A stretch of DNA of 34,939 nt from a virus (lineage: Duplodnaviria > Caudoviricetes). Shown one piece after another: positions 360-23,567 of the stretch. Made by a program: the position numbers and the translations under genes. The stretch covers positions 1 to 34,939 of the IMG/VR virus record IMGVR_UViG_3300012942_000092. The stretch is one strand, 5' to 3'. The number at the start of each line of letters is the position of its first letter. Positions within the stretch are counted from its first letter, which is position 1. The notes beneath the pieces are model-generated. The model had not been told where the DNA came from. It did no database searches and saw nothing but the letters and a program-made list of their open reading frames with translations.

Positions 360-944
360 TTATAGCCAACCTGCATCTTTTCTTTCTATCATAGCCAGCA
401 ATGGAGCGCAGCCGATTTGCTTATCTACCAAAGTAGCACTGAATACCCCGTCATAGGCGTACTTTCCCTTAGTATACCATTGAGTATAAGACCACAGATA
501 AGGACTATTCATATCGTGATATTTCCGATAACCCAGGCCGTTGTATATCTCAAACAGATACAATGCTTCATTAAGTACCCAACCTTCTTTACCGTCCAGT
601 CCGTTTATTTTATCAGTTACTTTCATTTTAATAGCATCGATGGCTGATTCCTCCCAGGTATAAGGGAATTTACCAGACTTAGGTAATGCCAGCGGCCTAC
701 CTTTAGGATCGTGTGTAGTTCTTTTGGTGAGTGGGTCTCCGTTATGTAGGTGGGTTAAAAAGCTATATCCGGATTCTCTATAATGAATACAGGCAATAAC
801 AGCCCAAGGAAGCCCAGTAGCGGTGGCTACAGACTGATACCTTGCTTTGTTCTTAATAGCCTTGTCTGCCTGGTCAGAGACGGCCTTTTCGTCGGTTATT
901 TTCATGGCATCCCATAAGGAGGTGTAGTCATAGGGTATGATCAT
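360..944 (-). CDS. endolysin, lysozyme-like (COG5526-type)
   Basis: IHYRES, LHNGDPL, TWEESAIDA, YNGLGY, SPYLWS, GKY..DG motifs; last gene of the late operon. Confidence 0.85.
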   Translation of the reverse strand: MIIPYDYTSLWDAMKITDEKAVSDQADKAIKNKARYQSVATATGLPWAVIACIHYRESGYSFLTHLHNGDPLTKRTTHDPKGRPLALPKSGKFPYTWEESAIDAIKMKVTDKINGLDGKEGWVLNEALYLFEIYNGLGYRKYHDMNSPYLWSYTQWYTKGKYAYDGVFSATLVDKQIGCAPLLAMIERKDAGWL

Positions 945-948
945 TGGC

Positions 949-1236
949 TTAATCTTTTATTTCTGGAATATCAACTGTCTGCCCTTTCAAGTCATGGGTG
1001 CAGTCATTTAAAAACTGAATCTGGCCATCTCTGATAAAGGAATGGCAGATAGGTGTAGATGGATTGGCACCGCCTACATTCCATAATAATGATGGCAAAG
1101 CAGTGGGTTTGTCCAGATCTTTATTAAACTCCCATACTGGGCCAAATTCAGGATTTGTATTTATAGGATGTTCTATTTTGCAGCCTGGACAAAAGAACTC
1201 ATAATATCCGGGCATTTCCTCTTTTACTTTTGGCAT
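949..1236 (-). CDS. small Cys/His protein, DUF6527-like
   Basis: CPGC..H, W.FN.D..KPT..PS, CHSFI.DG.IQFL.DCTH pattern. Confidence 0.7.
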   Translation of the reverse strand: MPKVKEEMPGYYEFFCPGCKIEHPINTNPEFGPVWEFNKDLDKPTALPSLLWNVGGANPSTPICHSFIRDGQIQFLNDCTHDLKGQTVDIPEIKD

Positions 1237-2576: not shown

Positions 2577-5500
2577 TTATTCATTGTACCAGTAATATAT
2601 TCGAGAATAGATCCAATTAGATCCGTCAAAAAAGAACTCGGTTTGATTTGAGAATGTCGCAGAATCAGAATTTTGAAGGCCGAAATTATATTTGACATTT
2701 ACTGAGCTAGCAATTTCTCCCTTTACGCCATTTATATCATGTCCATTGCCTCTAACAATCACAGTATCTGGATTCCCCCATGCATGAGGATAAACCACCT
2801 TTACATACCGTCCAGGTTTGGGATGAGCGGGTAGATCTATGTATGTAGTAGATGCCGAATCTGCATAAGTCGATATAAGCGAAATACCATCTTCAACAAC
2901 ATAAGTCGTTGCTACGGATAAACTTTTTGTGCCTATATGCAAGCCACCTCCAAACAGAGTATTGAAGTAGCCTCCATAGGAAGCCGATGATCCGTCTGCA
3001 TCAGTTGTGCCATCCACTCCTAAAATGGCGGCGCTTATGCCGTTAAGGCCATTGTTTCTCCCGAATAAAAGCGCTGCTATTGAAGCGTTATTTGTTACCG
3101 AAAATGAAGGCAATCCAGATACATTGCTACCATTGGTAAAAATACCCGCTGAGGTCATTTCTGAATATCGGTTATCCCCTTCAACATCCCTGGCAGAGAA
3201 TCCGGGTCTATTTTCGCCAGAAGATTGCATAAACCCAACACCTTTGCCGATCCTTGCCAGCGCTTTAGATGCAGGATTAGCCTCTTCTGATGCCGTTGTA
3301 CCAGCTGGCCAAAAGTCAATTTCCGCATCTTTAGCCTTAAGATAAGGAACAGAATAAATCCCTGAACTATTTGGGGCTTCGCTTGCTAGTTCTCCCACAA
3401 TCAGCTTTTCAATTCTGGCATAATCTGCCAATAACAACCCAGTAGCAACGCTTTCAAAGTTGGCTCCAATTGAGTTCCAATAGTCTGTATTTGTTGGAAG
3501 CGTCCCTGCTGGGATATTCCCAGCATCCACACGGGTTAAATAATAAATGTTATCAGTGTATTTAACAGCTTCTACAAGTAAATCGGTGCCATGATATACT
3601 GTACCCGAATCCCAAAGACCTCGATAAGTGGGTGTAGGTCCATTGTCACCTTTAGGGCCACTTAGCCTCGTAGCTGCACTCCAATTCGTCACCAAAGCAC
3701 CAGCTGCCGTTTTAGTTGCGGTGGTCATCCATAGATATTCCAATAATCCTACAGCAGGTTGTGCAGTAGTCCAACCCGGAGGATTGGCATTGTCGTCGTC
3801 TAGTGTGGGTGCGGCAGTTGGCGAACCGTTTTTAGCGAATCTGTGTTCGACGTAGTTGCCAGTTGGACCAGTGGCACCATCGTTGCCATCCTGCCCATTT
3901 TGACCATCACTTACTATGGGAACTACCTGTTCATCGAGTAGAAACGAAGTTCCACCTGCTAAATACATCTGAACTTTAAGAGACTTAATACCTGCACTTG
4001 GTGTATAAGCCTTTGAAGATTCATTTGCTGGGCTGGTGTATTTGGTTGTGTAGCTTGTGCCGTTAGCGCTTTCTTGAATAATAAATCTACAAGCATAAGC
4101 TACTGGTGCAGTGGATCCTGTTTGTGACCGCCCCATCACGGTTATAGAAGCGGGAGTATAAACCCCAGCTGCATTTTTAGCAATTGCGGGTACTGAATTA
4201 ACCAGCCAGTAAGCGGTTGCATTTTCCCCGTCACTACCGTCTAAGCCCTTCCATGGAGACCAGGTGTATTTGCCTGGATCAGAACTATCAGCCGATGTAT
4301 TATCAATATATTGGCCGATAAAAGTCTTATTCGTACCGTCGGTGGTTGAGAATCCAGCCGTACCAGTGTTATTTGTTGCATAGGCTATGTGAAGGTATTC
4401 AGTTGTGCCGTCGTTTCCTTTTACCCCAGGTATACCCTGGTCGCCTGGAATACCTTTAGTCTCCATCCAGGTATATTTGCTTGGATCGGTAGAATCTGTT
4501 GGCGAATTATCTACATAAGTACCAATAAAAGACCGCCCCGTCGCATCAGAAGTAGAAAAGCCACTAGTACCCGTATTATTATTGGCGTATGCTGTATGGA
4601 AGTATGTGCTAAGACCGTCATCGCCTTTAGGACCTTGTATGCCTTGATCGCCTTTCTGTCCAGGTAGTCCTTGCTCACCCTGAGCCCCCTGCGAACCTTG
4701 ATCGCCTTTTGCCCCTTGCTTTGATTTGGATAATACAAACCTTTTTGTAATGGAGCTATAACCGGATCTGGTGGCCGTTAGATCAACGTAACCGGTATCG
4801 GTTGTCATCGCTGTAACAGCGTACACCTTCCCAGACAAAGAGCCGGTAACACCAGCTGACTTTGCAGCAGTGACAGCCCAATTAGCGCTATCATTAACGG
4901 CGCCGTTGTAGATCACCAATTCAGTGTTAGCTCCTGTAAAATTGCCATTATTGCCGTTTACGTCCGTAGGGATCGTGTGACTTTCATTGGTTAGTACGCC
5001 TATAATTGCATTTTGCCCTGCATCGCCTTCCCATTTTTTCCATTTATATTTAGTTGGATCGGTAGAATCGTTAATGTCAAAATCGACGTATTGGCCTATA
5101 AATGCTCTATCAGTAGGATCACTTACTGAAAAATCTAAAGATCCTGTTATATTATTAGCATAGGCAATATGTAAATATTCCGTTTTACCATCTTGCCCAA
5201 TGCCTGGTATTCCTTGGTCTCCCTGGATTCCTTTCGTAAGATTCCATTGATATTTTGAAGGGTCTGTGCTATCTTCAGCAATGAAGTCTACATAAGCACC
5301 TGTATAAGCTTTGTTGCCCGGCGTTTGTGTAAACCCGCCGCCTGTAATAGTGTCGGCATACGCTACATGAAAATAAGATGTTTTGCCATCAGCGCCCGGA
5401 GTACCTGGTACGCCTTGATTCCCGTCATCACCTTGAACGCCCTGAACCCCTTGTGGTCCTTGATCACCCTTATCACCTTTATCGCCCTTATCACCTTTAG

Positions 5501-7697
5501 CCGCTGATATCTGCCAATAATCGGTATCGGTGGGCGCTTTGTCATCAGTAGCAGTTTCACCAATATACAAGTAGGTTTGGCCATTATAGAATACCCGGTC
5601 ACCAGGGAAATAAGTCTGGCCAGGCACATAAGAACCACGGTCCAAAGGAACCGGACCCACAACACCGGGCGCGCGTTGAATTAATGTGCCATTTAGCGTT
5701 ACTGCTCGTTCGTTGCTGACATTCCAGTCAATACTTGAGCTGGCATCACCAAAAAAGAACTGATTTGAATCCAGGTCAAAGTAAATGGTCCCGTCTAAAG
5801 ACTGTATTCTACCTGCTGTAATGATCCGCCCATTAATTGAAGCAAATCCATAAGTAAGCCCTACGCCCCTAAATCCGTCCTGAACGTCATAGATGGCGCC
5901 CACACTAAGCATATAATAACCCGGAACGTCATCTACCAGTATTTGATCTTCACTAACAACCCACGTGCCTGTTAATGCTGTTTTTGAGCATTTGGCATAG
6001 ATATAATAAGGTTTGTCCAGATCGGGAATATCAAGATTCGCTGAAGGGATTGACCATGTAGATCCTAAACCGTCAACTTTTAAATTGTAATGGATCAGCT
6101 TTGTGGCCGTGAAAGCTGCGTTTAAATTATCGTTTGAGACTGTTACACGTCCGCCACTAAGCATAAATGCCTGACTTTTGGCACCCACTGACAACATCAA
6201 AGTCTCAATTGAACCAGGACGGAAATTACCTGGATCAAAATAATCTCCGGACGGATCAAAGATCAAATCCTGTAGCCTTAATTGATTCTGATAACCTCTG
6301 CGGTACCCATCTATTCTACTTCTATCCACTTGCCCAATCAGAGTACTATTTTCAGCATCTTTTGCAATCAGCCTTTGTACTAAAGTAGGTTCCACTTTAT
6401 CGGCAATAGTAGCTGTTATTTGATAAGGTCTGTATAGTGGATAAGAAATTGCTGTTACTCTTATTTGAGCATTGATACCCAGCTTAGTATCTACGATTTT
6501 AACCCGATCGCCTATGCCAATGCTAATACCTTTCTTTTTGGCGTTGATCGGATCTATTTGCAGTCCATAAGCCACACGAGGCACGCTGTTTTCAGCCAGG
6601 TATTCAGTTGCCCGGGCTAGTAATTCAGCTTCAGCAGCTGCTACGTAAGATGGTGGCATCAGAATATCTAACAGTGAATAAGTATCACCGACACGGGCGG
6701 TCCTTAGATCGTTGGGATAAGTGTAACCAGTATCGTCGGTATACGGATTAAATTTGATTGTTTTAGTAACAGGATCGTACCCATTTGCGGCTATCTCAAA
6801 CGTCACACCTGCGAAATCACCGTCTAAGAAAGTAATCTTTGCAGTCGTACCACCAATCAGATAGTCATTAATATTAAAATCTAGGGCGGAATCAGTAATG
6901 CTCAAGCTACCTTCACCCACGGCCGTAACTTTACCTTCTCTATGAGGATATATATCGTCAAAATTAACCACGCCTTCTTCAGTACCGTATAAGTCTGTAT
7001 TTTGGGTCAATGGAGCGCTTAATCTCAATCTTTTACTTCCATAGGTGTAATCCAGGTTCTTATCAGACCCAAAAGCATATAATTTTGTAACGATGTTTTT
7101 ATCATCGATGTTTTTTCTAGTAAGCTGATATAATCCGTTCCCTTGTCCGTATTGAAATCTCAAGTTGGTATCAGCACCTGCTTTTTTCACTAGATGGACT
7201 TCTTTATTATTTACCCAGTATTCTAACCCAAATTGAGTGGCAATTGTATTTAAAGCTTCTCTGCATTTTACATTTGAAAAAGAGAAGTTTTGTACTGGCA
7301 TATCATCCACTTCACCGATTGTCCAGCCTGGGTCAAGTTCATTCATGTTGTCCACCCATAGCTGTAAAATATCATTTGGAGTGGCTGCATTATAGTCAAA
7401 TTCTGCATCTCCTTCATCCATAAAGACTTTACTGTAAGAATTGTAAATCGGTGATTCAAATGAGCAGCTATACGTGAAGGTATTTGTACGGTCGACTTCC
7501 GGAGGTAAGTTTAAAGTAAACTTAACGCCAGCATAAGTAATGTAATCGCCTTTTTTCAAATCTAGCGGTACCGCTGATTTAAATTGACACGCCACCTTAT
7601 GTTCTGCCATAAGGGAATGAGTGAATGTCGCTATGCCATCGGCTGCGATATTCAGGGTTAAGTGTTCGGCGGTATTTCGGTATATGGTTAGGGTCAT
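2577..7697 (-). CDS. large tail tip / host-specificity protein with collagen-like repeats
   Basis: N-terminal phage tail (Tal/endopeptidase-like) region (TKLYAFGS.KNL, FDDIYP.R.G), GXY runs, four YxHxAYA...DSTDPxKYxW repeats, aromatic CBM-like motifs. Confidence 0.85.
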   Translation of the reverse strand: MTLTIYRNTAEHLTLNIAADGIATFTHSLMAEHKVACQFKSAVPLDLKKGDYITYAGVKFTLNLPPEVDRTNTFTYSCSFESPIYNSYSKVFMDEGDAEFDYNAATPNDILQLWVDNMNELDPGWTIGEVDDMPVQNFSFSNVKCREALNTIATQFGLEYWVNNKEVHLVKKAGADTNLRFQYGQGNGLYQLTRKNIDDKNIVTKLYAFGSDKNLDYTYGSKRLRLSAPLTQNTDLYGTEEGVVNFDDIYPHREGKVTAVGEGSLSITDSALDFNINDYLIGGTTAKITFLDGDFAGVTFEIAANGYDPVTKTIKFNPYTDDTGYTYPNDLRTARVGDTYSLLDILMPPSYVAAAEAELLARATEYLAENSVPRVAYGLQIDPINAKKKGISIGIGDRVKIVDTKLGINAQIRVTAISYPLYRPYQITATIADKVEPTLVQRLIAKDAENSTLIGQVDRSRIDGYRRGYQNQLRLQDLIFDPSGDYFDPGNFRPGSIETLMLSVGAKSQAFMLSGGRVTVSNDNLNAAFTATKLIHYNLKVDGLGSTWSIPSANLDIPDLDKPYYIYAKCSKTALTGTWVVSEDQILVDDVPGYYMLSVGAIYDVQDGFRGVGLTYGFASINGRIITAGRIQSLDGTIYFDLDSNQFFFGDASSSIDWNVSNERAVTLNGTLIQRAPGVVGPVPLDRGSYVPGQTYFPGDRVFYNGQTYLYIGETATDDKAPTDTDYWQISAAKGDKGDKGDKGDQGPQGVQGVQGDDGNQGVPGTPGADGKTSYFHVAYADTITGGGFTQTPGNKAYTGAYVDFIAEDSTDPSKYQWNLTKGIQGDQGIPGIGQDGKTEYLHIAYANNITGSLDFSVSDPTDRAFIGQYVDFDINDSTDPTKYKWKKWEGDAGQNAIIGVLTNESHTIPTDVNGNNGNFTGANTELVIYNGAVNDSANWAVTAAKSAGVTGSLSGKVYAVTAMTTDTGYVDLTATRSGYSSITKRFVLSKSKQGAKGDQGSQGAQGEQGLPGQKGDQGIQGPKGDDGLSTYFHTAYANNNTGTSGFSTSDATGRSFIGTYVDNSPTDSTDPSKYTWMETKGIPGDQGIPGVKGNDGTTEYLHIAYATNNTGTAGFSTTDGTNKTFIGQYIDNTSADSSDPGKYTWSPWKGLDGSDGENATAYWLVNSVPAIAKNAAGVYTPASITVMGRSQTGSTAPVAYACRFIIQESANGTSYTTKYTSPANESSKAYTPSAGIKSLKVQMYLAGGTSFLLDEQVVPIVSDGQNGQDGNDGATGPTGNYVEHRFAKNGSPTAAPTLDDDNANPPGWTTAQPAVGLLEYLWMTTATKTAAGALVTNWSAATRLSGPKGDNGPTPTYRGLWDSGTVYHGTDLLVEAVKYTDNIYYLTRVDAGNIPAGTLPTNTDYWNSIGANFESVATGLLLADYARIEKLIVGELASEAPNSSGIYSVPYLKAKDAEIDFWPAGTTASEEANPASKALARIGKGVGFMQSSGENRPGFSARDVEGDNRYSEMTSAGIFTNGSNVSGLPSFSVTNNASIAALLFGRNNGLNGISAAILGVDGTTDADGSSASYGGYFNTLFGGGLHIGTKSLSVATTYVVEDGISLISTYADSASTTYIDLPAHPKPGRYVKVVYPHAWGNPDTVIVRGNGHDINGVKGEIASSVNVKYNFGLQNSDSATFSNQTEFFFDGSNWIYSRIYYWYNE
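4245..5500 (-). repeat. four ~55-aa repeats interspersed with collagen GXY runs inside the tail protein
   Basis: YFHVAYAD, YLHIAYAN, YFHTAYAN, YLHIAYAT, each ending DS(T/S)DP.KY.W; GDKGDKGDKGDQG run. Confidence 0.85.
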
Positions 7698-9097
7698 AAT
7701 AATAAAGATTGCGGGTTGGGATCGTAATTGAACTGAGGATCAAGTAGTGCAAATCTGCCAATAAGAAAGTCGATAACTTGGCCTACATTTGATAATATCC
7801 TGTGGTTACCATCAGCACCCCACAAGTCGATGTCGTCTTTCCACAAATCGTACGGATACGTGCTGGACAATTCGCTGAAAAATGGCTGCAAAAATTCGGC
7901 ATTAAAATATTTGTTTCGGAGTTCGGCATATCTTGCATCATACCTTCCTTTGAATCCAGCCAATGACTTGACATACATCAATGAAATTTGCCAAAACGGA
8001 TCATTTATATCTGAGTACATTTCAGGGCCTACAATGTCTCCCCATAAAGGCGCTTCATGTCGAATCCCAATTGACCGATCCATGTCGTACAGACACGGCC
8101 ACCATACAAGTCCATCATAAGTAACCAGATTCATATTTTTAACTCGATTATCAGTACACCAGAAGACCAACATAATTAGGAAATAATCAATTACTGCATC
8201 AATTTTTAAGTACTGATCAGCGTTGGCGGTAAAATCAGATTGAGTCGAGGTTTGCACGAATTGTATAACTCTGGTTAGTGCATCCTGGGTTTCCTGAGGT
8301 GCCGTAACGTCAAATTTAGGGTTCTTGATATCCCATTGGTCAGCCCTATACCATGGTGCAGACGGAGGAAATGCGTAAAAATTTTCCGCACCAGCCATTA
8401 TCTGTAAAACTTCGCCTTTGTCCATGTTGAAGTTTTGGCGCTTCCTGGACAAATTCCAGCTATAAAGACCTTGGTAGTCTCCATTTACATACAACTCACA
8501 CGCAAAGCCGTCAATAACACCCCTTGCGCCCGAGTCTTTAATTTTTTTAATTGGTAGACCTCGACTGTAGGATACAGACCAGGGGAACGCCTGACTTTGT
8601 GGACGTGTTTCCCAAACAAGCTTTGCAATCCTTGCAATACCTATATCTCTGACGCCCAGCACATCACTATAGTTTGATTTCAAATGAAAGCTATCAATAC
8701 TTACCCAATCACCAAACTTGATCTTAAACTCATCTTCATCAATATTTAATAGGTCGATTGAATAACTTTTTTTAGGGTTCCCCAATGATGTAGCGCCTTG
8801 CCATTCAACGTCGGCCAGCTTTGTAAATACAGTGCCGTTTTCGTCGTTATATTTCAATACCATTCTTACTGGCAGATCTTTACCAATCCCTGTCATGTCG
8901 CCAAACAATTGAACTTTTGCAGCGGTTTGCTTTGGCCTGGCAACGATAGCACTTTTGGCACCAGTAAAATCCCTTCCGCCCATTTCGAGCATTGGGAACC
9001 GGAAAGATTTGCCATCCTTATTGGAGAATGGGATCCAGCTATCTTGATCCGGCGTTCCGTCCGGGAGTTGATTTATTTTCTTTGCCTTAACTGCCAT
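7694..9097 (-). CDS. CotH-family atypical protein kinase
   Basis: KKSYSIDL, LKSNYSD, ELYVNGDYQGLY, IDYFLI..DNRVKNM, W.P.LYDMDRSIG, RYAELR motifs typical of CotH. Confidence 0.8.
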   Translation of the reverse strand: MAVKAKKINQLPDGTPDQDSWIPFSNKDGKSFRFPMLEMGGRDFTGAKSAIVARPKQTAAKVQLFGDMTGIGKDLPVRMVLKYNDENGTVFTKLADVEWQGATSLGNPKKSYSIDLLNIDEDEFKIKFGDWVSIDSFHLKSNYSDVLGVRDIGIARIAKLVWETRPQSQAFPWSVSYSRGLPIKKIKDSGARGVIDGFACELYVNGDYQGLYSWNLSRKRQNFNMDKGEVLQIMAGAENFYAFPPSAPWYRADQWDIKNPKFDVTAPQETQDALTRVIQFVQTSTQSDFTANADQYLKIDAVIDYFLIMLVFWCTDNRVKNMNLVTYDGLVWWPCLYDMDRSIGIRHEAPLWGDIVGPEMYSDINDPFWQISLMYVKSLAGFKGRYDARYAELRNKYFNAEFLQPFFSELSSTYPYDLWKDDIDLWGADGNHRILSNVGQVIDFLIGRFALLDPQFNYDPNPQSLLL

Positions 9098-9100
9098 ATC

Positions 9101-9478
9101 TTATATTTGAAACTTACCGCAAGTTTTAGCCTGCTGTAATTTTTGAAGGATCATATCATTTACGATTACCGGGTGTGTGCTGGCCATGGACTGGAAATAA
9201 TCAAATTCACCCTGCATGGTCAGTTCGTCGAAACAAAATCCCTCTGCATTGGTATCCACATAGCTTCCGTCGCTTTTATTGACGATTGTTTTATTGTCAG
9301 CGACTAGTTCTTTGTCGAAGGGTTTTAATACCGGATTGTCAATCTCACTACCATTATCATCCACTGGAAGTATGCGAGTGTAAACGGTAACCGTTTTTCC
9401 TTCAAGATTATAGGTAAGCGCTCTTACCCGAGCTTCCAACTTAATGCCCATTATTGGGTCTAAACTTATTTTTGTCAT
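9101..9478 (-). CDS. hypothetical tail-region protein
   Basis: 125-aa ORF tightly packed between tail genes. Confidence 0.7.
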   Translation of the reverse strand: MTKISLDPIMGIKLEARVRALTYNLEGKTVTVYTRILPVDDNGSEIDNPVLKPFDKELVADNKTIVNKSDGSYVDTNAEGFCFDELTMQGEFDYFQSMASTHPVIVNDMILQKLQQAKTCGKFQI

Positions 9479-9479
9479 G

Positions 9480-10595
9480 TTATACGATTGTAGAGGTTAT
9501 TTTATGTTTGGCACCCGCATTGTCAATATAAAAGAGGTCTGTTCCGTCATAGTTTATTGCGCCTTTTACAACAGGGTTTTGGGCCTGCACGCCTGGTGTG
9601 AAAGCGAGCGGAGGCATAGTTGCCGTACCGGCGGGCAACTGATTATCTATTGCATTAACGGATCCAATACCCAAAACTCTTAATGTTAGATTTTCTGATG
9701 GAAGCCAATCATTAAAGGTCCCAGATCCGTGAAATCCTAATGAGTTATAAGAAACGCCACCTACACGGCTCAGTACAGCAGGTATCGACTTCCAATTTGC
9801 AATTGTAACATTTCCATATTGTGTATATACGCTTTGAATAAAGTTTCCCATTCCTGTGTTGGAGGCCGTATACCGAACTTCCAGGTATGTATAAGAAGAG
9901 TATACTGCATTTGAGATAAATTTACTAATATCAGGAAAGCCGATTGCCAGCATATGGTCTTTATCAGCATGGAAATATGTGCTGGTGCCATCTGCGTTTA
10001 ATTGCCAAGGGTATATTTCATATTTTCCTTGCACGGCATAGTCGCTTAAAGACTGGATTGAATCCTCTGTATACCCTCCTAACACCTGCGAATAACACAA
10101 ATCTATTTGTATTAATCCGGAAATAATTTCCCATAATGACCATAAATTTTTATCACCAGGAGATGATCCACTTTGCTGATCTATCGCACCTCTCGGGAAG
10201 ATACCTCCTGGGTTATAAGATCTGCTGACTACTGTATTTTTAGCACCTACAAAGACTATCGATTGATGTAAAACCGCCCCATCTTGTGTAACTATTAATA
10301 ACAGATTGTTTGGCACCCAAATACCTCTTTTTATACCAAAAGGACTAAAGGGATATCTGTTATTTTTAAAAATAGTCTTATCAAGCGTATAGTATCCAGG
10401 AGACGTAATTGTATTCAAACTTATATTATCGGGTATCATAGGCGCATCAGCTGTAATTTTTGCCAGGTTCGTTTTCATATCCTGCATCCCCAACCTATAC
10501 GCCTTCCCGTCCTGATCTCCCAAAACAAACAGCGGATCTACTACTGCATTGCCATCATCCAGCTGATTAATCTTTTTTCCTTTTATATCTGGCAT
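9480..10595 (-). CDS. minor tail / fibre-like protein
   Basis: follows Dit; N-terminal KKINQL module; SLNTITSPGYY knob-like motif; C-terminal GAINYDGTDLFY. Confidence 0.6.
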   Translation of the reverse strand: MPDIKGKKINQLDDGNAVVDPLFVLGDQDGKAYRLGMQDMKTNLAKITADAPMIPDNISLNTITSPGYYTLDKTIFKNNRYPFSPFGIKRGIWVPNNLLLIVTQDGAVLHQSIVFVGAKNTVVSRSYNPGGIFPRGAIDQQSGSSPGDKNLWSLWEIISGLIQIDLCYSQVLGGYTEDSIQSLSDYAVQGKYEIYPWQLNADGTSTYFHADKDHMLAIGFPDISKFISNAVYSSYTYLEVRYTASNTGMGNFIQSVYTQYGNVTIANWKSIPAVLSRVGGVSYNSLGFHGSGTFNDWLPSENLTLRVLGIGSVNAIDNQLPAGTATMPPLAFTPGVQAQNPVVKGAINYDGTDLFYIDNAGAKHKITSTIV

Positions 10596-10637
10596 ATCTT
10601 AATTTTTTTATTGTTATTCGTATCCCCTAATGGGTTG

Positions 10638-11162
10638 TTATTCGTATAGTAAAAATTCACCGTCTGCATCACTCAAATACTCACCGCCTTCATCTGATCC
10701 TGTATCTATTAATGGATACACTGTGTCATTGAAGAATGGAAAGTCATCAATGAGGGATAGCGTGAATTGGAGTATGGTTGTGCCGTCTTGGTTATAATAT
10801 GGTGCTGGGTTGTCCATGCTTGCCATATCATCGTAGAGCAATTTAAACTCCATTCCTAAAGGCGGAACTTCTAAGATGAAATAACCGCACGTTCTTATAT
10901 AATTTATGAATGCATCATAGTTTAACCAGGCTGCAGCGGATGTATTACCATGAACCGCACAGGGAATAGAAAGGCTTCTGGATCCAAAATTAAGTGAAGA
11001 AACATCCCTTTCGGTACCGTCCTGGTCATTCCATGGCTGAGCTAAATTTTCCTTTCTTTTAGGCGCCTTTAAAAGTTCTTTGTATTGACCTTTTAAAAAC
11101 AGAAGGTGCCATGTAACCCAAGCATCCTGATCGTTTATTATTATCCTGTTTGGAAAGTTCAT
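10638..11162 (-). CDS. distal tail (Dit-like) protein
   Basis: immediately after the tape measure; ELLKAPKRKE, W.DQDG.E motifs typical of this position. Confidence 0.7.
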   Translation of the reverse strand: MNFPNRIIINDQDAWVTWHLLFLKGQYKELLKAPKRKENLAQPWNDQDGTERDVSSLNFGSRSLSIPCAVHGNTSAAAWLNYDAFINYIRTCGYFILEVPPLGMEFKLLYDDMASMDNPAPYYNQDGTTILQFTLSLIDDFPFFNDTVYPLIDTGSDEGGEYLSDADGEFLLYE

Positions 11163-14100
11163 GATACGCCTCCTATATCTCTAAGAGATTGACTTTTAGT
11201 ATTATTAATTACCTGATCCAGCTTTTTGTTAGTAACTGCTACATTATCAGCGGTGTCTTTGGTGTTTTTCTCAATATTTTTCAAATAGTTCATGTTTTGA
11301 ACTAAATAATCATTGGATATTTTCACCTGCGAAACAATGTTTTTGGTCTGGTCAAGATTATTTCTAAATAAGCCGCCTAATTCGCTAGCCTGGTCCTGAG
11401 TTATGCCTTTGATTTGACCAGAAAGGGCAGAGGATTGATCAGAAGCTTGATTTAATTCAGGGAAAGCTTGCATAGCAGCATCATAAGCCTGGGTACCGTA
11501 TGCAATAGCATCTTTTAATTGACTTTGTAATACTTGTATTTCGTCAGCAGTGAGCATCCCGCCGTCGTTCTGATTAAAATCGCTAAGGAACTGGTCCATG
11601 ATTTTTTTAACCGGGCCGCTGATCAGAGAATCTTTAATGCTGGCAAAGATTGAATTTGATAATATGGTATTTATGTCATCGGAAAAGTCTTCAAATGACC
11701 TCTTGCCGGCCTTTAATCCGTCGACAATGGATTGAGCGATTGAATCAGATGTTGACCCTGCGAATGTTTCAGCTATCTGTTCGTTCAAATCTTCCAAAGT
11801 AGAACCCAGCGCGACCGCTTCATCGTTCGCCTGTATGAAAGCATCAGCATATTTTTTGGTACGGTCGTCCAGTTCACCAGTTAACTCAAGCATTTTAAGA
11901 TAATCTGCAATTTGCTGATCGGTCATGCTTCCGTTAATCCCTAAATCTCCATACTCTTCTACAACTTTTGTTTTTTTGCCGATTCCGAAAACACCTCCAT
12001 ACTTTTCCTTATGTCTACCGGTAATTTGTTGCCCCGTGGTTATTAAAAACCTTTTGTAGTCTTCTAAATCGTTTTTGTTACCTTGTTGTTTGGTTTTGAT
12101 TAAATCTCTTTGGGCTGCTAGCTCTGCAAGGGTTCCTTTTACAATACCGTCTTGAATATTCATTTGTTCCCGCAAATACTGGTTGTATTGTATTTGCCCG
12201 ATATTCATTTGATCTTGGGCATCTAAAAGCTCCTTCTGGGCTTTGATGGCAGATTCTTTTGCTTTAGAAAACATTGAAAATATAGACCCAATAAGTCCTA
12301 AGCTAGAAGATACTATACCTGTGGCGTTCCCTGATGCAATAGAAGCGCCTAATTCTGCACCTGCTGAAACAAGGCTTCCCATAGTGTCCAATGTATCGCC
12401 TAGAGATTCATTTAAAGAAGATATGCTTTGCCCAATAGAAGAAATTTCACTACCTATCTGGCTTAATCCTTCAAAGACAGCTGAAATTTTCCTTTTTTGA
12501 AGTTCCTCTGCCGATAAGTTTAAATCATGAAGTTTAATAAGGATTGCTTCCAGATTTTTTTTGGCTTCTGGATCTTTCAATCCATCCAGCGCTTTGCTTA
12601 TATTAGAATCGTTATCTGAAAGATCTTTTATTTTCCCATAATCTGCCTGTACGTCGCTAACAAACTTTGATATTATATCTTTAGCGGAGCTGTATGTATT
12701 TTCAAGGTTTTTTAAATAATCTTCCTGCCTTTGCTGATCAATTTTATTATTACTTAGATTGGCATTTGCGATATCAAAATTGGAGCTGTTTGGATTGTTC
12801 AATACAGCGTTATTCTTTTCTTTTGCGATATCCGCTTTGATATCGGCTATCCGGTTTGCATTGCGTAATAAATTGTTTGTAAAGGAGTTATCGGACTGTG
12901 CATTTTTATTATTCGTTTCTGCCCAAATTGTTCTGATTTTCTGGGCTAGATCAGAATCAATATTTTCTATCTTCTTTGCGTAATCTTCATAATTTTCACC
13001 ATTGATGTTTAGTGCATCCTGGACTAATTTTGGATTAATGGCGGGATTTGATTTGGCTGCAGCATCTAAGGCGGTCTTTGTCTGTGATTGACCCTGGAGG
13101 TTCTGTAGCTGTTTGGTAAAGGCTAAAAAAGAATCACTGTCAGGGCTTAGGTTGGCCAGTTGCTCTTTTGCAAAGTTTTGCTGTAATTCTAATAATCTGT
13201 CAACCTGATCTTTTTCGTATGTCTTTTTTAAATCATCTTGTTTTTTAAGGGAATCAGCGTTTATCTTTTCGATCAAAGCAGCGTTGTTCTTCGCGCTGTT
13301 TATTTCTGCTTTCTTTTGATTGTCAAGTAATTGTAACTTTAATTGAAGTTCTTCTGCGGATCCTTGTTTTACATTGTCAAGTTGCGCCTGAATAGCATCG
13401 GCCTGATCTTTTAATTTCTGGTCGTTGTATTTGACTTGTGCATCCCTATCAGCTTTTAATTTGGTAGCCTGTGCTAATGAAATTTGACCAGATGTAACAT
13501 TAGGATTAGATACTGTATTATTATACTGTGCCTGATTTAATTTTAATTGGGCGTTCAACCAGTCTTTAGATCCTTCTTTGGCTATTGTTACTTTGGCTTT
13601 CCAGTAGTCAGTATCAGAAGACAAAGCTCGTTCCTGGGATTCTTTACTGAACGCAGCGATATCAGATTCTCCTTTAGATTGGGAGTTGACGTACTCGTTA
13701 TAGAACTGATTCAATTTATCGGCTTTGGAGTTTAAAAAAGCGGCGTGATCATCAAGTATTTTTTGATCTTTTTGAGCGGCTTCCTTATCAACTGTTAAGT
13801 TCTTATTCGTCAGGTCTTTAGTATTCTGATTGAAATAATCAGTAGCTTTTGCAGTTGCTTTAGCGGCTTCCTGCCTGGCTTTTAAAACCTGTACATAAAT
13901 ATCTTGTGACGGATCGACACCATTAATTTTAAGCTGTTCAAGTGCGCCCTGCTTTGTTAGGTCATTTACATTTTGTTGTAATTGTAAGATTTCCTGCCTG
14001 GACTTGCCTTCTGCTTTGGCAATATCCAAAGCGTGTTGTGCTGCATTTACCCTATCGTCACTGATGGACTTCTGCAGATTGGAAACCTGGTTTAAGTAAT

Positions 14101-15688
14101 CGGCTGATTTTTTAAGAACATCATTCAGTCGTTCTTGTGCTTTTGTTGCTTTGTCAGCACCAGAAGTAAATAAGGCGAATGCTCCTATAACGGCTGTTAT
14201 AGCTATTAATACAACTCCTACGGGGTTTGCTTCCATAGCAGCATTTAAAGACCATTGTGCGGCTGTGGCACCTTCTGTGACTGCAATTTCGGCTTCTTTG
14301 GTAACAATATTTGCATTTTCGGCTGCCGTGTTTTCTACAGTGGCTACATTGCCAGCCGTCTGGGCAGTAGTTCCGGATTTAATAGCTGCATTCTTTGCAA
14401 GCAAGTTTCTAACGTAGACGTTTACTGCGCTATCTTTGTTTAGAACTTGTGCCAATTGTTGAACACCCATTAACGTGGCCATGGCACTGGTAGTAACTTT
14501 GATTATTTGCTGTGCCTTTTCGTTATCGTCAGTAAATAACCCTATAACACCGCTGGCAGCGGTAAAAGCGCCTACTAAACCTTGTACACCTTGGCTTAAT
14601 GCATCAAATACTTTTGTGTTCGATGCCTGTAATTTTATCTGCTTGTTTACGTTCTGGATAGAATGTTCAAGTAAAGTAGCTCTGGCTATATCATCCTGAT
14701 TGAAAATACCTGCTGATTGATCAGAAGCTATTTTATTCCTTAATTGACGGTATTCAGTGATAATATTCACGCCTTTTGTAACTACTTGAGATTGCTCTTT
14801 GATTTGAGTAGTCAAATCGGCTATTTGGTTACGCATTTGGCCCCCGATTTCGGAATCGGCACGCTCCGCATCTGTCAGGTTGCTATAAGCCGTTTTTAAG
14901 GCTGCAAGGGCGGCTTTTTTCTCCTTTAATGTATTAGTCTGGAGGTTCTGTAAGTTTAAAGAGGTTTCCTGTACTGCTGTCTGGTTTTTGATTTCAGCCC
15001 TTATCTCTTCCTGTGCTTTTTTAAGGGCGGCGGTTGCCTGAGTGTATTCTTTCTGGTCGATTTTACCAGCAGCAAAAGCAGCAGACAACCTTTTTTGCGC
15101 GGATTCTGCCTGACTTAAGGCCGTCTGCATATCCACCAGGTCTAAAACATACTGTTTTGTTTCCTCATCAAGCGACGCAAAGGCCGTTTTAGCAGCAGAT
15201 AAGGTTTGCTGCATGGATTCGCTTAGAATGGCATTTAAGTTACTGGAAGGCCCCCTTGTAGGTCGTTCTATATTCTTGCCTTTTGTCTGGATAGCAGACA
15301 TACCGTATTGATTTACAACTGATTGCAGTTCTTTTAATTGCTCTTTAGAAAAGTCAACAACCTTTTCGATTTTGGCTTTTTCTGTTTGCACAAACCCATC
15401 AGGTAAGATAGTGGTAACACCTTTGCCCTGGATCTCTTTTTGTGCTTTTTGCGCTTCCTGGACCAATGAAGCGTTCATTTTAGATTGAGCTTGTGCGACT
15501 TCCTGTGCTACTTCTTTTTGAACCTTAACGGCAGTCTGACCTACTTCTTTAATGGTAGCTTCTAAAGCAGTTGAATCAATTCCATTAGCACCTAGCTGCG
15601 AAAGAATCTTGTCGATATTCTTTGCATCTAAAGTGAATTTTGATAAGTCAATTCTGGCATTCCACTGTAAACTTCTATCTTCTGCCAT
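11159..15688 (-). CDS. tape measure protein
   Basis: 1509 aa, Ala/Gln/Lys-rich helical protein with AQWSLNAAMEANPVG motif and hydrophobic segments; lies after the tail chaperone. Confidence 0.92.
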   Translation of the reverse strand: MAEDRSLQWNARIDLSKFTLDAKNIDKILSQLGANGIDSTALEATIKEVGQTAVKVQKEVAQEVAQAQSKMNASLVQEAQKAQKEIQGKGVTTILPDGFVQTEKAKIEKVVDFSKEQLKELQSVVNQYGMSAIQTKGKNIERPTRGPSSNLNAILSESMQQTLSAAKTAFASLDEETKQYVLDLVDMQTALSQAESAQKRLSAAFAAGKIDQKEYTQATAALKKAQEEIRAEIKNQTAVQETSLNLQNLQTNTLKEKKAALAALKTAYSNLTDAERADSEIGGQMRNQIADLTTQIKEQSQVVTKGVNIITEYRQLRNKIASDQSAGIFNQDDIARATLLEHSIQNVNKQIKLQASNTKVFDALSQGVQGLVGAFTAASGVIGLFTDDNEKAQQIIKVTTSAMATLMGVQQLAQVLNKDSAVNVYVRNLLAKNAAIKSGTTAQTAGNVATVENTAAENANIVTKEAEIAVTEGATAAQWSLNAAMEANPVGVVLIAITAVIGAFALFTSGADKATKAQERLNDVLKKSADYLNQVSNLQKSISDDRVNAAQHALDIAKAEGKSRQEILQLQQNVNDLTKQGALEQLKINGVDPSQDIYVQVLKARQEAAKATAKATDYFNQNTKDLTNKNLTVDKEAAQKDQKILDDHAAFLNSKADKLNQFYNEYVNSQSKGESDIAAFSKESQERALSSDTDYWKAKVTIAKEGSKDWLNAQLKLNQAQYNNTVSNPNVTSGQISLAQATKLKADRDAQVKYNDQKLKDQADAIQAQLDNVKQGSAEELQLKLQLLDNQKKAEINSAKNNAALIEKINADSLKKQDDLKKTYEKDQVDRLLELQQNFAKEQLANLSPDSDSFLAFTKQLQNLQGQSQTKTALDAAAKSNPAINPKLVQDALNINGENYEDYAKKIENIDSDLAQKIRTIWAETNNKNAQSDNSFTNNLLRNANRIADIKADIAKEKNNAVLNNPNSSNFDIANANLSNNKIDQQRQEDYLKNLENTYSSAKDIISKFVSDVQADYGKIKDLSDNDSNISKALDGLKDPEAKKNLEAILIKLHDLNLSAEELQKRKISAVFEGLSQIGSEISSIGQSISSLNESLGDTLDTMGSLVSAGAELGASIASGNATGIVSSSLGLIGSIFSMFSKAKESAIKAQKELLDAQDQMNIGQIQYNQYLREQMNIQDGIVKGTLAELAAQRDLIKTKQQGNKNDLEDYKRFLITTGQQITGRHKEKYGGVFGIGKKTKVVEEYGDLGINGSMTDQQIADYLKMLELTGELDDRTKKYADAFIQANDEAVALGSTLEDLNEQIAETFAGSTSDSIAQSIVDGLKAGKRSFEDFSDDINTILSNSIFASIKDSLISGPVKKIMDQFLSDFNQNDGGMLTADEIQVLQSQLKDAIAYGTQAYDAAMQAFPELNQASDQSSALSGQIKGITQDQASELGGLFRNNLDQTKNIVSQVKISNDYLVQNMNYLKNIEKNTKDTADNVAVTNKKLDQVINNTKSQSLRDIGGVS

Positions 15689-19935: not shown

Positions 19936-20595
19936 TTAGTCCTCCCGGAAGTCTATTAAAGGCAGTGCAGTCTTGATTGCAGACAGAATACTGTCATAAG
20001 AAAACTGTGCAGCTTTAGGGTTAACGGTTCCCCTTACCAGAATACCGGCAAAGGCTTTACTAGTGAGAATGGAATTAATTAGCACACCTGCATAAGTGTG
20101 ACCTGCAGGTAATGTTCCGTATGCACTTGCTTTGGTATCGACTACATCGACAGCCACGGCAAAGCCAGAGCCGTCACCGCCAATATTGGCAGCATCGGCA
20201 CTTAAGGAATCGCCTGATGCATATCCAGTTCCAGCCACGGTCAGATCAACGGCTGTTACTTTACCGCCTGCTACAGTGATGTTTGCTTTAGCGCCTGATC
20301 CAGTACCGCCAGTTAAGGCAACATCAGAATAAGTGTCGTCGGCAGCATAGCCAGATCCAGCAGTGATAGTGCCAAAACCCAGGATAGCTCCGGATCCAGT
20401 CACAGGAAAGGGTTTTAATTCGCCATTGGAAGTCTGCTTGATGATTGGGTGCCCGGCCTGAATTGTATCAAGTGGGAAACCTGTCACATCCAACGTGCGA
20501 CCGCCGCGAATAGACTGGAAATTGTCAACTATGACAATTGAGTCCAGCTCGGAGTCAACAACAACAGGGGTGTTGTTTAGGTTAGCGTACGCCAT
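19936..20595 (-). CDS. head decoration protein with a Gly/Ala/Thr-rich insertion
   Basis: GGRTLDVTGF..AGH.II and LPAGHTYAGVL..GIL.RGTVN flanks; directly upstream of the major capsid gene. Confidence 0.7.
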   Translation of the reverse strand: MAYANLNNTPVVVDSELDSIVIVDNFQSIRGGRTLDVTGFPLDTIQAGHPIIKQTSNGELKPFPVTGSGAILGFGTITAGSGYAADDTYSDVALTGGTGSGAKANITVAGGKVTAVDLTVAGTGYASGDSLSADAANIGGDGSGFAVAVDVVDTKASAYGTLPAGHTYAGVLINSILTSKAFAGILVRGTVNPKAAQFSYDSILSAIKTALPLIDFRED

Positions 20596-21506: not shown

Positions 21507-23567
21507 CTAAAAATATTTTCCGTTTTCTGTAAGCCAATCCGGTGTTGTTTTCCAACCTTCCATACGTTTTTTATTGGCTTTTATCCAGGCCTGTGCGGTT
21601 TTGGGAATCTTTGTAATGTATTTGATTTTAGGTTTCTTTTCGGATATCCCTAAATTGAAGTCTGACATAGCTTCCCTTTCTGCAATTGAGCAAAGAATGG
21701 GAACTTCATAGCAAATGCAGTTACTGCCCCAGGTACACTTACCATTTCTCCTTACATAAAGTGTGTTGTTCTTTTCTAATGTCAAGTCATAAACCATTCC
21801 ATCATAAGGAATCAATTCTTTATCGTACACTGTAGTTGTTTTGGAATGGCATTCGTGTATTTTAATTAAGTCATTATTAATTGTGTATACACCATTATTA
21901 AACTCCTGCCTTTTACCTTTTGTTTTATCTATCGAAAAAGATGGCCGTTTCCCTATTTTTAATAACAACTCTCCCAATTGGCCGGCCATTATTTTGGATG
22001 AAGTAAACATCCATCTGTCTGGGCGCTTAGGAATGAATGAACCTCCTCTGTTCCCGACAAATGGATTTGGCTTTCTGATTGACCCATCGCAAGAAATAAA
22101 CGCATTCAGGAATATTTCAATTTGCCTTGGGCTAGAATTCATTATTTCTTCTGGAACAAACTTATCTGGCGACTTGCCGAATTGTGACAAATAATAATAA
22201 AAATCATTATCGTGAGAATGAAACCCATCATTCCGGATTGTGTATTTTACCCCAATTTTATCAAGACATTCTTTTATTTCCGCTCTATTTAACTCATCAT
22301 TGCCTTTCATAGCCGCAATACCCCATGCCGTTCTTGATTGAATAACTGCGCCATCAGTCAGGTAATACCCCATAAATTGACAAAACAAATCGAATCCGAT
22401 TATGTGATTTCCTATAACCATATTCCTTTGATCTGGTGCTGAATATTCAGATGACCTGTAGAAGTGACCCTTCCCTTTGGTCATTTCATCTGCCCTTCTA
22501 TGGGAAATGAACTTCTTTGAATGAGGGCTTATAACAAACATTGGGTGACCAGGGGTTACAACCATATCAAAAAAAGCATTTTTAAAATGAACCATATTGC
22601 CGATATAGTTATTTGCATGTGTTTCAATGCATTTTACATACTCCAAATTTTTGGTTTCTGTGTTTAACGACAAAATCATTTCGCCAATTTCTACGTCTTT
22701 AAAATACCTCCACCCAGATTTAGTATACACTTCGGTTTGGTCGTCATAACAGTTTACATGCCATTTCGTAAAATTAAACTCTTTCGGGTACTTGCCTGCT
22801 AAATTATCGCACATATCATATTTCGGGTGTGATATAGATGTTTTGACTTCTTTTCCGATTATCCACCATTTGCCCTGCATCTGCCTGTAATCATTGGCTA
22901 AATAAGCCTTGTTGATCTCATTCCTGGCAGTTCTGTAAGCGTTCTTTTTCGGGTCTTTATATACTCCTGGACCGCTGGACTTCATGGCACCTTTACGGTT
23001 GGTGAGCGCCGCTTCTCGAAGGTCTTTAGAAAGCTCTCTGGCACTTCTACCTGTCTTCAATCCTTCGGTTATCGTTTCTTTAATAAACTTCCTAGCGGAC
23101 TTTTTCCATACACGACTGGATAAGTTCAGGTCTTTTTTGATAAATTGCCTAGCTGCAGCTTCTGATCCGGTACCGTATGCTTTCCGGATCCTTCCAAAGT
23201 TCGATTCCATATTATCAGATACGGATATCGGCTTGATAGGCGGCTTATCTCCACCAAAGGCGGACTTCTCCACCAAATCAATCTTTTGTTCTGATAATGC
23301 CCAGGATTTAATGGCGCCTTTCTTAATTTCAAGGCCAATACGACCTGTGAGCGTGTCTAATATGGTTCCTATTTTTTCCTGTACATACTTAGGCAGCGTT
23401 CTGTTATTGACTAACCTAGCCCTGGCAGAGAAATAAGCCACGTCGGTATAAGCCTGGTTGATCAGCTCAACAATACGAGCCATGACCGCTTCTGAAATAC
23501 GAATGTTTTTGCGTTCGTAGTCCTTTATTAAGTCCTCTAACGTGTATTTGGTCTTGGTCTTAGGCAT
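21507..23567 (-). CDS. MuF/SPP1 gp7-like minor head protein interrupted by an intein
   Basis: GRSARELSKDLR, GPGVYK...NAYR.ARNEIN, CD.LAGKYPK.F.F..WHVN|C.C motif split by the intein. Confidence 0.85.
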   Translation of the reverse strand: MPKTKTKYTLEDLIKDYERKNIRISEAVMARIVELINQAYTDVAYFSARARLVNNRTLPKYVQEKIGTILDTLTGRIGLEIKKGAIKSWALSEQKIDLVEKSAFGGDKPPIKPISVSDNMESNFGRIRKAYGTGSEAAARQFIKKDLNLSSRVWKKSARKFIKETITEGLKTGRSARELSKDLREAALTNRKGAMKSSGPGVYKDPKKNAYRTARNEINKAYLANDYRQMQGKWWIIGKEVKTSISHPKYDMCDNLAGKYPKEFNFTKWHVNCYDDQTEVYTKSGWRYFKDVEIGEMILSLNTETKNLEYVKCIETHANNYIGNMVHFKNAFFDMVVTPGHPMFVISPHSKKFISHRRADEMTKGKGHFYRSSEYSAPDQRNMVIGNHIIGFDLFCQFMGYYLTDGAVIQSRTAWGIAAMKGNDELNRAEIKECLDKIGVKYTIRNDGFHSHDNDFYYYLSQFGKSPDKFVPEEIMNSSPRQIEIFLNAFISCDGSIRKPNPFVGNRGGSFIPKRPDRWMFTSSKIMAGQLGELLLKIGKRPSFSIDKTKGKRQEFNNGVYTINNDLIKIHECHSKTTTVYDKELIPYDGMVYDLTLEKNNTLYVRRNGKCTWGSNCICYEVPILCSIAEREAMSDFNLGISEKKPKIKYITKIPKTAQAWIKANKKRMEGWKTTPDWLTENGKYF
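21720..22751 (-). mobile_element. intein with LAGLIDADG homing endonuclease (344 aa)
   Basis: starts CYDDQTEV; block B TPGH; FMGYYLTDG and FLNAFISCDG; ends VYDL...WGSN followed by Cys+1. Confidence 0.9.

What the first reader, a model, noticed from the sequence alone, without database searches (positions are those of the whole stretch)
7694..10595. CotH-family kinase in the tail module, sharing an N-terminal module with a fibre-like neighbour: a possible virion-displayed protein kinase
Seen: the 467-aa protein begins MAVKAKKINQLPDGTPDQDSWIPFSNKDGKSFRFPMLEM and the 371-aa protein begins MPDIKGKKINQLDDGNAVVDPLFVLGDQDGKAYRLGMQDM. They share KKINQL.DG, D, DGK..R..M..M over about 40 aa and are unrelated after that. 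Both lie between Dit and the tail-tip gene, and the kinase stop overlaps the tail-tip start. The kinase keeps DN..KN and YD.D motifs and has no signal peptide. Established: CotH is an atypical kinase that phosphorylates Bacillus spore-coat proteins. Inference: the shared N-terminus is a docking tag that loads interchangeable cargo, here a kinase, onto the tail, to modify virion proteins or host surface/periplasmic targets.
Basis: partly seen in the sequence, partly recalled or inferred. Interest (0 to 1): 0.8.

Follow-up and report, generated by a model that had tools for sequence, protein, structure and literature searches.

The report
Plug-in kinase for a phage tail
A Bacteroidota-type phage carries, among its tail-tip genes, a compact CotH-fold kinase with intact catalytic residues whose first 40 residues match those of a neighbouring fibre-like protein, so it is likely bolted onto the virus tail and would most likely act on the host surface, a reaction not yet tested.

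Summary
Observation confirmed. ORF467 (7694-9097, minus) is a CotH-family kinase: Pfam E 8e-22; its model matches B. cereus CotH at Z 35; catalytic D316/N321/D338 are intact. Its first ~40 residues match those of the fibre-like ORF371 (16/37 identical; 0 of 20,000 shuffles). It belongs to a large phage-type CotH clade (2,443 clusters at 50% identity) with a fixed Q100/K140/Y337 signature where cellular CotH has R/non-K/W. The clade recurs in tail modules of unrelated phages, fused to several virion anchors such as BppU_N. In related prophages the comparable gene carries esterases or peptidases. Close relatives keep the tag and flanks while cargo bodies diverge. Virion display, substrate and docking partner (perhaps Dit's extra C-terminal tail) are inferred; only two cargo types carry this exact tag. 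Papers already note unstudied phage CotH domains, and this scan reported CotH tail proteins many times on other DNA. New here: a minimal tagged form, the Q/K signature and a candidate Dit socket. New variant of a known kind; interest 0.5.

The parts
7694..9097 (-). ORF467: CotH-fold kinase (residues ~45-460) behind a ~40-residue N-terminal tag; phage-type Q100/K140/Y337 signature; catalytic D316, N321, D338
8978..9097 (-). N-terminal ~40-residue tag of the kinase (candidate virion anchor)
   Evidence: low confidence in the monomer model, pLDDT 42-51
9101..9478 (-). ORF125, no family; its start is conserved in close relatives; possibly a fibre chaperone or adaptor (inference)
   Evidence: no hits; 9333-9509 shared
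9480..10595 (-). ORF371: fibre-like protein with the same tag, a pyocin-knob-like region (~50-161), a variable middle and a conserved C-terminal 50 residues
   Evidence: (structure rows mostly tail fibres, all under the Atlas bar)
10476..10595 (-). N-terminal tag of ORF371; the only part of the gene's 5' side shared at 80% or more with relatives in other runs
10638..11162 (-). Dit-like distal tail protein with an extra acidic C-terminal tail of about 28 residues (candidate socket, inferred)
   Evidence: likeness to other Dit tails not significant
2577..7697 (-). Tal/tail-tip protein with collagen-like and BppU-like repeats; its start overlaps the kinase stop
11159..15688 (-). Likely tape measure protein (size, composition and position; no family hit in Pfam)
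   Evidence: same position as annotated tape measure genes in related phages

Best explanation
ORF467 is a CotH-fold kinase with intact catalytic residues, encoded between the Dit and tail-tip genes, that is likely hung on the tail tip by the 40-residue tag it shares with the fibre-like ORF371 and would most likely act as an enzyme-type receptor protein, phosphorylating a host surface or periplasmic target. Shown: fold, catalytic residues, shared tag, gene position, and membership of a phage-type clade that recurs in tail modules. Inferred: (1) the tag anchors both proteins to the baseplate, perhaps on the extra C-terminal tail of Dit; (2) the enzyme is active, using K140 in place of the Arg of cellular CotH to hold ATP; (3) the target is on the host envelope (protein or glycan), with ATP from the periplasm or from lysed cells. 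My odds: active enzyme about 0.85, virion-borne about 0.75, host-envelope target given both about 0.6.
For: Fold: Foldseek 5JDA E 2e-17; Z 35.1, rmsd 2.8 A over 334 residues, next fold Z 11.8. Catalytic D316/N321/D338 are kept in 165, 166 and 166 of 166 homologues not picked by a motif. Clade members are fused to BppU_N after Dit-Tal in Lacticaseibacillus phage R3.3. They lie between baseplate and tail-collar-fibre genes in a P2-like Klebsiella prophage and two genes after an M23-peptidase tail gene in Lactobacillus phage JNU_P11. Tail-fibre PHROG hits lie N-terminal to the kinase in 4 of 6 IMG/VR proteins scanned. In Sphingobacteriales prophages with a related Dit, the comparable gene has a hydrolase hit in 7 of 11 scanned (SGNH/GDSL, SASA, M14, alpha/beta; 5 above cut-off), and a CotH protein (P0112) carries their N-terminal module (E 6e-13). 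Another prophage has a CotH gene and a neighbour sharing a different N-terminal module (14/32, 0 of 10,000 shuffles). Many cellular Bacteroidota CotH hits begin with signal-peptide-like stretches (seen by eye), so the fold probably works outside the cytoplasm.
Against: No virion proteome or assay was found. An ATP source outside the cell is unproven (periplasmic ATP is recalled, from no call). The only characterised relative phosphorylates its own structural neighbours (passages of PMC7821199), which favours rival 1. Homology between this tag and the Sphingobacteriales cargo N-termini is not significant (hhalign probability 0.6-3%), nor is that of the Dit tails (E 6.4, rank 13 of 1,607). In 50 of 72 IMG/VR loci the CotH gene is followed by an LRR-like gene that this window lacks, so partners differ. 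The adenine-stacking Tyr142 of B. cereus CotH aligns to a non-aromatic position in the profile (low certainty).
Confidence: 0.4

Rival explanations
1. Assembly kinase. The tag brings the enzyme to the baseplate inside the infected cell, where ATP is plentiful, and it phosphorylates the neighbouring fibre, ORF125 or Tal to mature or arm them, as B. subtilis CotH does for CotB and CotG.
For: B. subtilis CotH is built into the coat and phosphorylates coat proteins. It solves the ATP problem. Kinase and fibre bodies both diverge fast in relatives (39% and 32%), which fits enzyme-substrate co-divergence. A fixed LRR-like neighbour in 50 of 72 viral loci could be a dedicated substrate.
Against: No CotB/CotG-like serine-rich tract in the window's minus-strand proteins (at most 9 Ser in 30 residues). 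The domain usually ends the protein (30 residues or fewer after it in 179 of 242 rows) behind a long N-terminal part (over 200 residues in 165 of 242), the place of receptor-acting domains. Comparable genes in related prophages are surface-type hydrolases.
Confidence: 0.3
2. Not virion-borne. A late-expressed cytoplasmic enzyme (superinfection exclusion or counter-defence) whose tag is a relic of recombination with the fibre gene.
For: Other phage kinases act inside the cell, and a HipA-like kinase sits among head genes in Gratiaviridae. No direct virion evidence.
Against: The tag is kept across five kinases whose identity to ORF467 falls to 36-53%. Clade members are fused to BppU_N and fibre domains.
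Confidence: 0.15
3. Virion-borne binder or non-protein phosphotransferase. The kinase pocket binds a phosphorylated or nucleotide-like surface ligand, or moves phosphate in a reaction other than ATP-dependent phosphorylation; the Q/K swap reflects a changed chemistry.
For: The clade differs from cellular CotH at three active-site positions without exception at two of them. No ATP source is needed.
Against: Near-total conservation of D316, N321 and D338 fits standard kinase catalysis.
Confidence: 0.12

Closest known systems
Bacillus CotH spore-coat kinase (B. cereus 5JD9/5JDA; B. subtilis CotH; Pfam PF08757)
   Same: Fold (Z 35, 334 residues). Catalytic Asp, Asn and metal-binding Asp: D316/N321/D338 align to chain positions 224/229/247 of 5JD9, and the 22-23 residue Asp-Asp spacing equals that of B. 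subtilis D228/D251.
   Different: Q100 for the Arg of the RG motif, K140 where B. cereus has Asn, Y337 for Trp245. Encoded in a phage tail module with an anchor-like tag. No serine-rich substrate nearby.
Large phage and DGR-target proteins with a CotH domain (category f1 of PMC5758913; PC_00012 of bioRxiv 2020.04.01.020958; domain group 3 of bioRxiv 2024.11.15.621889; phage G gp353; BT-TP2 gp44)
   Same: gp353 and gp44 share the Q/K/D/N/Y/D signature and fall on the phage side of the tree. Called unstudied in PMC8008677.
   Different: Those are 2,000-residue lectin/LRR proteins, often beside a reverse transcriptase. ORF467 is only tag plus kinase, and no reverse transcriptase was seen among the window proteins scanned.
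Modular receptor-binding proteins: conserved N-terminal virion anchor plus exchanged enzyme or binding domain (passages of PMC10684548)
   Same: Conserved N-terminal module, divergent body, two genes sharing one anchor.
   Different: The cargo is a kinase fold, not a depolymerase or esterase. This anchor matches no Pfam, PHROG or solved structure.

Membership tests
CotH kinase family (PF08757) | Profile match above the curated cut-off | tested here: met
   78.5 bits vs 23.8, E 8.3e-22
CotH kinase family (PF08757) | CotH two-lobed fold | tested here: met
   Model pLDDT 90; 5JDA Z 35.1; Foldseek E 2e-17
CotH kinase family (PF08757) | Equivalents of PKA D166, N171, D184 | tested here: met
   D316, N321, D338
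CotH kinase family (PF08757) | Adenine sandwich by two aromatics (Tyr142, Trp245) | tested here: inconclusive
Cellular (Bacillus-type) CotH subgroup | Basic residue (Arg) in the RG motif and Trp before the metal-binding Asp | tested here: not met
   Q100 and Y337 here; cellular-type rows have R or K in 21 of 24 and W in 24 of 24
CotH kinase family (PF08757) | ATP-dependent Ser/Thr phosphorylation of proteins | not testable with these tools
   needs an assay
Phage receptor-binding or fibre-type virion protein | Gene in the Dit-Tal tail-tip module | tested here: met
Phage receptor-binding or fibre-type virion protein | N-terminal anchor shared with another tail protein | tested here: met
   shared with ORF371; ORF371 being a fibre is itself a lead
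Phage receptor-binding or fibre-type virion protein | Anchor belongs to a known baseplate-binding family | tested here: inconclusive
   no PDB or PHROG match; weak Atlas lead to DUF685 at 0.86
Phage receptor-binding or fibre-type virion protein | Present in virions and acts on the host surface | not testable with these tools
   needs virion proteomics and assays
DGR-target CotH proteins | Multi-domain protein with C-terminal variable lectin and a neighbouring reverse transcriptase | tested here: not met
   467 aa, kinase ends the protein; no reverse transcriptase among 29 window proteins scanned; the record is about 35% complete by its own estimate

The most novel reading that the evidence does not exclude
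Tailed phages of several phyla carry a distinct Gln/Lys-type kinase as a virion-borne 'writer' enzyme that phosphorylates the host envelope at adsorption, in the slot where others carry esterases. In this lineage it plugs by a 40-residue tag into a C-terminal tail of Dit, a socket shared with the fibre.
Probability: 0.3. Interest if true: 0.85.

Novelty: new variant of a known kind. Interest (0 to 1): 0.5.

Why it matters
The phage protein kinases discussed as characterised in PMC8008677 act inside the cell; the CotH type is called unstudied there. A clade of 2,443 clusters keeps a kinase active site on tail proteins, so some common step of infection or assembly uses it. Most members are long fibre fusions. 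This one is tag plus kinase with a confident model, a practical construct for the first assay of the clade. The Q/K signature gives a simple marker for telling phage-type from cellular CotH and two obvious mutants.

Tried and rejected
Complex prediction of three copies of the kinase tag with the last 35 residues of Dit gave no answer (score 0.11, mark 0.32); it is no evidence either way.

Searching for more carriers of the tag: a region search found only the query. tblastn of both tags against 50,697 phage records gave nothing below E 3. A degenerate DNA pattern gave 0 hits in viral contigs, 25 in genomes and 27 in metagenomes; all were chance, apart from two loci that are the window's own contig. 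The profile found no convincing match in 401 Bacteroidota genomes (3 partial hits, E 0.002-0.006, not examined further) or among 3,015 stored ORFs and proteins beyond its own members.

A Fisher test of Dit tail against cargo module is not used: modules were called by eye and the loci are related. Leave-one-out recovered 7 of 13 cargo N-termini strongly (mostly near-duplicate pairs), 2 weakly, 4 not.

The AlphaFold model of ORF371 was too poor to search (pLDDT 36). ORF125 matched no family nor a positional analogue. Single-protein searches of viral contigs with the kinase, Dit and Tal found no confirmed relatives. Promoter and terminator scans were at chance level, and the long repeats listed show no inversion sites around the cassette. 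No RNA holder listed. No run other than the possible source covered the kinase gene at 80% identity. A frameshift or mis-called ORF is rejected by full-length homologues. A degenerate pseudokinase is rejected.
Full report
Setting. The window is a partial phage record. Its minus strand holds terminase, SPP1-type portal, head morphogenesis protein, major capsid, a likely tape measure gene, a Dit-like gene, three genes (371, 125, 467 aa), a Tal/tail-tip gene and likely lysis genes; an integrase lies at the far end. The Tal N-terminus matches 69 phage records, nearly all of Bacteroidota hosts, and the Dit was found in 19 of 301 Sphingobacteriales genomes and 1 of 301 of the Cytophagales sample. 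A Bacteroidota host is therefore likely.

Observation. Coordinates, motifs and the 4-nt overlap with Tal are correct. The two N-termini share 16 of 37 residues; 0 of 20,000 shuffles reach the score of 79, and the next best of 630 window pairs is 38. The tag also begins four more kinases (P0002-P0004, P0026) and both ORF371 homologues (P0171, P0172). The five tagged kinases form one branch (SH-aLRT 100, quick tree of 57 rows that I chose).

The kinase. Pfam CotH matches at E 8e-22. The AlphaFold model (93-row alignment, pLDDT 90; residues 1-40 at 42-51) matches B. cereus CotH at Foldseek E 2e-17 and Z 35.1, rmsd 2.8 A over 334 residues, with PI4 kinase next at 11.8. D316, N321 and D338 align to the CotH catalytic positions. 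They are kept in 165, 166 and 166 of 166 protein hits with a domain of 300 residues or more, and in 241, 242 and 242 of 242 rows when loci are added (6 short rows of 248 dropped). A pseudokinase is unlikely.

A phage-type signature. All 166 rows have Q100 and K140, and 161 have Y337. Among 24 cellular-type hits from Sphingobacteriales and Flavobacteriales genomes, position 100 is R in 19, K in 2, S in 1 and missing in 2; position 140 is never K; position 337 is always W. I called these cellular from their signal-like starts by eye and did not check their surroundings. The tree separates 20 of them from 37 phage-type rows (SH-aLRT 100). B. cereus has Arg and Asn at these places. K140 ends a strand before a long helix, where canonical kinases keep their ATP-binding lysine (recalled). 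So the basic residue appears to have changed places; this is inference, as I could not inspect coordinates. The 72 viral loci were found with a pattern containing this lysine, so only the 166 protein rows test it.

Where the clade sits. There are 2,443 clusters at 50% identity and 15 of 50,697 phage records. I opened five: after Dit-Tal as a BppU_N fusion in Lacticaseibacillus R3.3; in the tail region of Lactobacillus JNU_P11; between baseplate and tail-collar-fibre genes in a P2-like Klebsiella prophage; before a reverse transcriptase in BT-TP2; and in phage G beside a phosphoesterase with an Mtd_N match just under the cut-off, outside an evident tail cluster. Four of six IMG/VR members scanned have tail-fibre hits before the kinase. 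In 50 of 72 viral loci an LRR-like gene follows (7 loci end there; one of two members scanned hit an LRR family). The window lacks that gene.

ORF371. No Pfam, PHROG or NCBIfam hit. Atlas neighbours are mostly tail fibres, with a pyocin-knob-like match over residues 50-161, all under the tool's bar. Against P0171 it is 78% identical in the tag, 32% in the middle and 80% in the last 50 residues. 'Fibre' is a good lead, not a result.

Close relatives. Contigs from two studies other than the possible source share Tal, Dit and tape-measure DNA and the first 33-40 codons of ORF371, then run on as other sequence. One contig (run X5) bridges the cassette with 932 letters for 986 in the fibre and 1,612 for 1,621 in the kinase slot; a run X7 contig shows the same 1,612. 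By contig and protein length these genes are probably P0171 and P0026 (inference), that is a diverged fibre and a kinase 39% identical, next to a Tal start 92-93% alike. This is fast divergence of the same cargo, not a swap. Other contigs (X2, X3, one in X5) have a different gene end before Tal, which I could not read further.

Candidate socket. The window's Dit has about 28 extra acidic residues that the single-domain Dits of TCUEAP3 and a Porphyromonas prophage lack. Of 20 Sphingobacteriales Dit loci, 13 have such a tail and 7 do not. The 13 carry, after Tal or between Dit and Tal, a gene whose start looks by eye like the tag; 7 of 11 scanned have hydrolase hits. A profile of those starts hits one CotH protein, P0112, at E 6e-13 among 1,855 N-termini and nothing significant in the tail-less loci. 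Against this, the profile does not significantly match the window's tag (E 6; hhalign probability 0.6-3%), and the tail profile ranks the window's Dit tail only 13th of 1,607. Locus L206 gives an independent case of a CotH gene and a neighbour sharing another N-terminal module.

Mechanism. Most likely the tag loads the kinase on the tail tip beside the fibre, and the kinase acts on the host envelope (0.4). An assembly kinase acting on the phage's own tail proteins is close behind (0.3): it needs no outside ATP and mirrors B. subtilis CotH, but no serine-rich substrate is evident. A cytoplasmic effector (0.15) and a binder or other phosphotransferase (0.12) remain.

What is in print. I saw passages only. 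PMC8008677 says a CotH-family domain is occasionally seen in phages fused to a hypervariable lectin and is unstudied. bioRxiv 2020.04.01.020958, bioRxiv 2024.11.15.621889 and PMC5758913 note it in DGR targets. PMC12189002 and PMC7821199 gave the CotH residues, and PMC10684548 the modular RBP scheme. The original structure paper was not held. Ten searches showed no test of a phage CotH, no stand-alone tagged form and no Q/K signature; the library lacks most subscription papers, and I read no supplements, where virion proteomes (phage G, for one) may list such proteins. This scan holds 26 notes with all the words CotH, kinase, phage, tail, fibre and none on a close look-alike of this protein.

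Verdict. Real, and a clean minimal example of a widespread, noted but untested class. New variant of a known kind; interest 0.5.

Noticed in passing
window 21507-23567 (-): Head morphogenesis (MuF-like) protein interrupted by an intein with a LAGLIDADG-like domain.
   Followed up: no
window 949-1236 (-) and 360-944 (-): A DUF6527 gene (Cys/His-rich, 95 aa) sits between likely lysis genes and a 194-aa endolysin-like gene that has no family hit.
   Followed up: no
window 19936-20595 (-): 219-aa gene just before the major capsid gene with hits to fibre and virion structural families; possibly a head decoration protein.
   Followed up: no
L001-L072, gene after CotH (for example L007:11552-12688): An LRR-like 250-380 aa gene follows the CotH gene in 50 of 72 viral loci, and a similar gene follows it in L206; candidate substrate, chaperone or partner.
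   Followed up: partly
L174 (G512), genes between Dit and Tal: Two cargo genes and a 75-aa gene share yet another N-terminal motif in a locus whose Dit has no tail; looks like a second plug system (by eye).
   Followed up: no
L206:reverse 8867-13933 (G690): A 92-aa gene, a 693-aa CotH gene, an LRR-like gene and a 529-aa gene sharing the CotH gene's N-terminal module lie among head-neck genes.
   Followed up: partly
L074:5484-14254 (phage G gp352-gp353): Purple-acid-phosphatase-like gene next to the CotH/lectin/LRR gene; the pair is in earlier notes of this scan.
   Followed up: no
L048:4514-6688 and 9056-11116: Two CotH genes in one viral locus, each followed by a DUF285-family gene, on either side of lysis genes.
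   Followed up: no
window 9097-9104 and 10595-10602 (-): Both tagged genes are preceded by the same few bases before the start codon, a trace of common origin or a shared translation signal.
   Followed up: no
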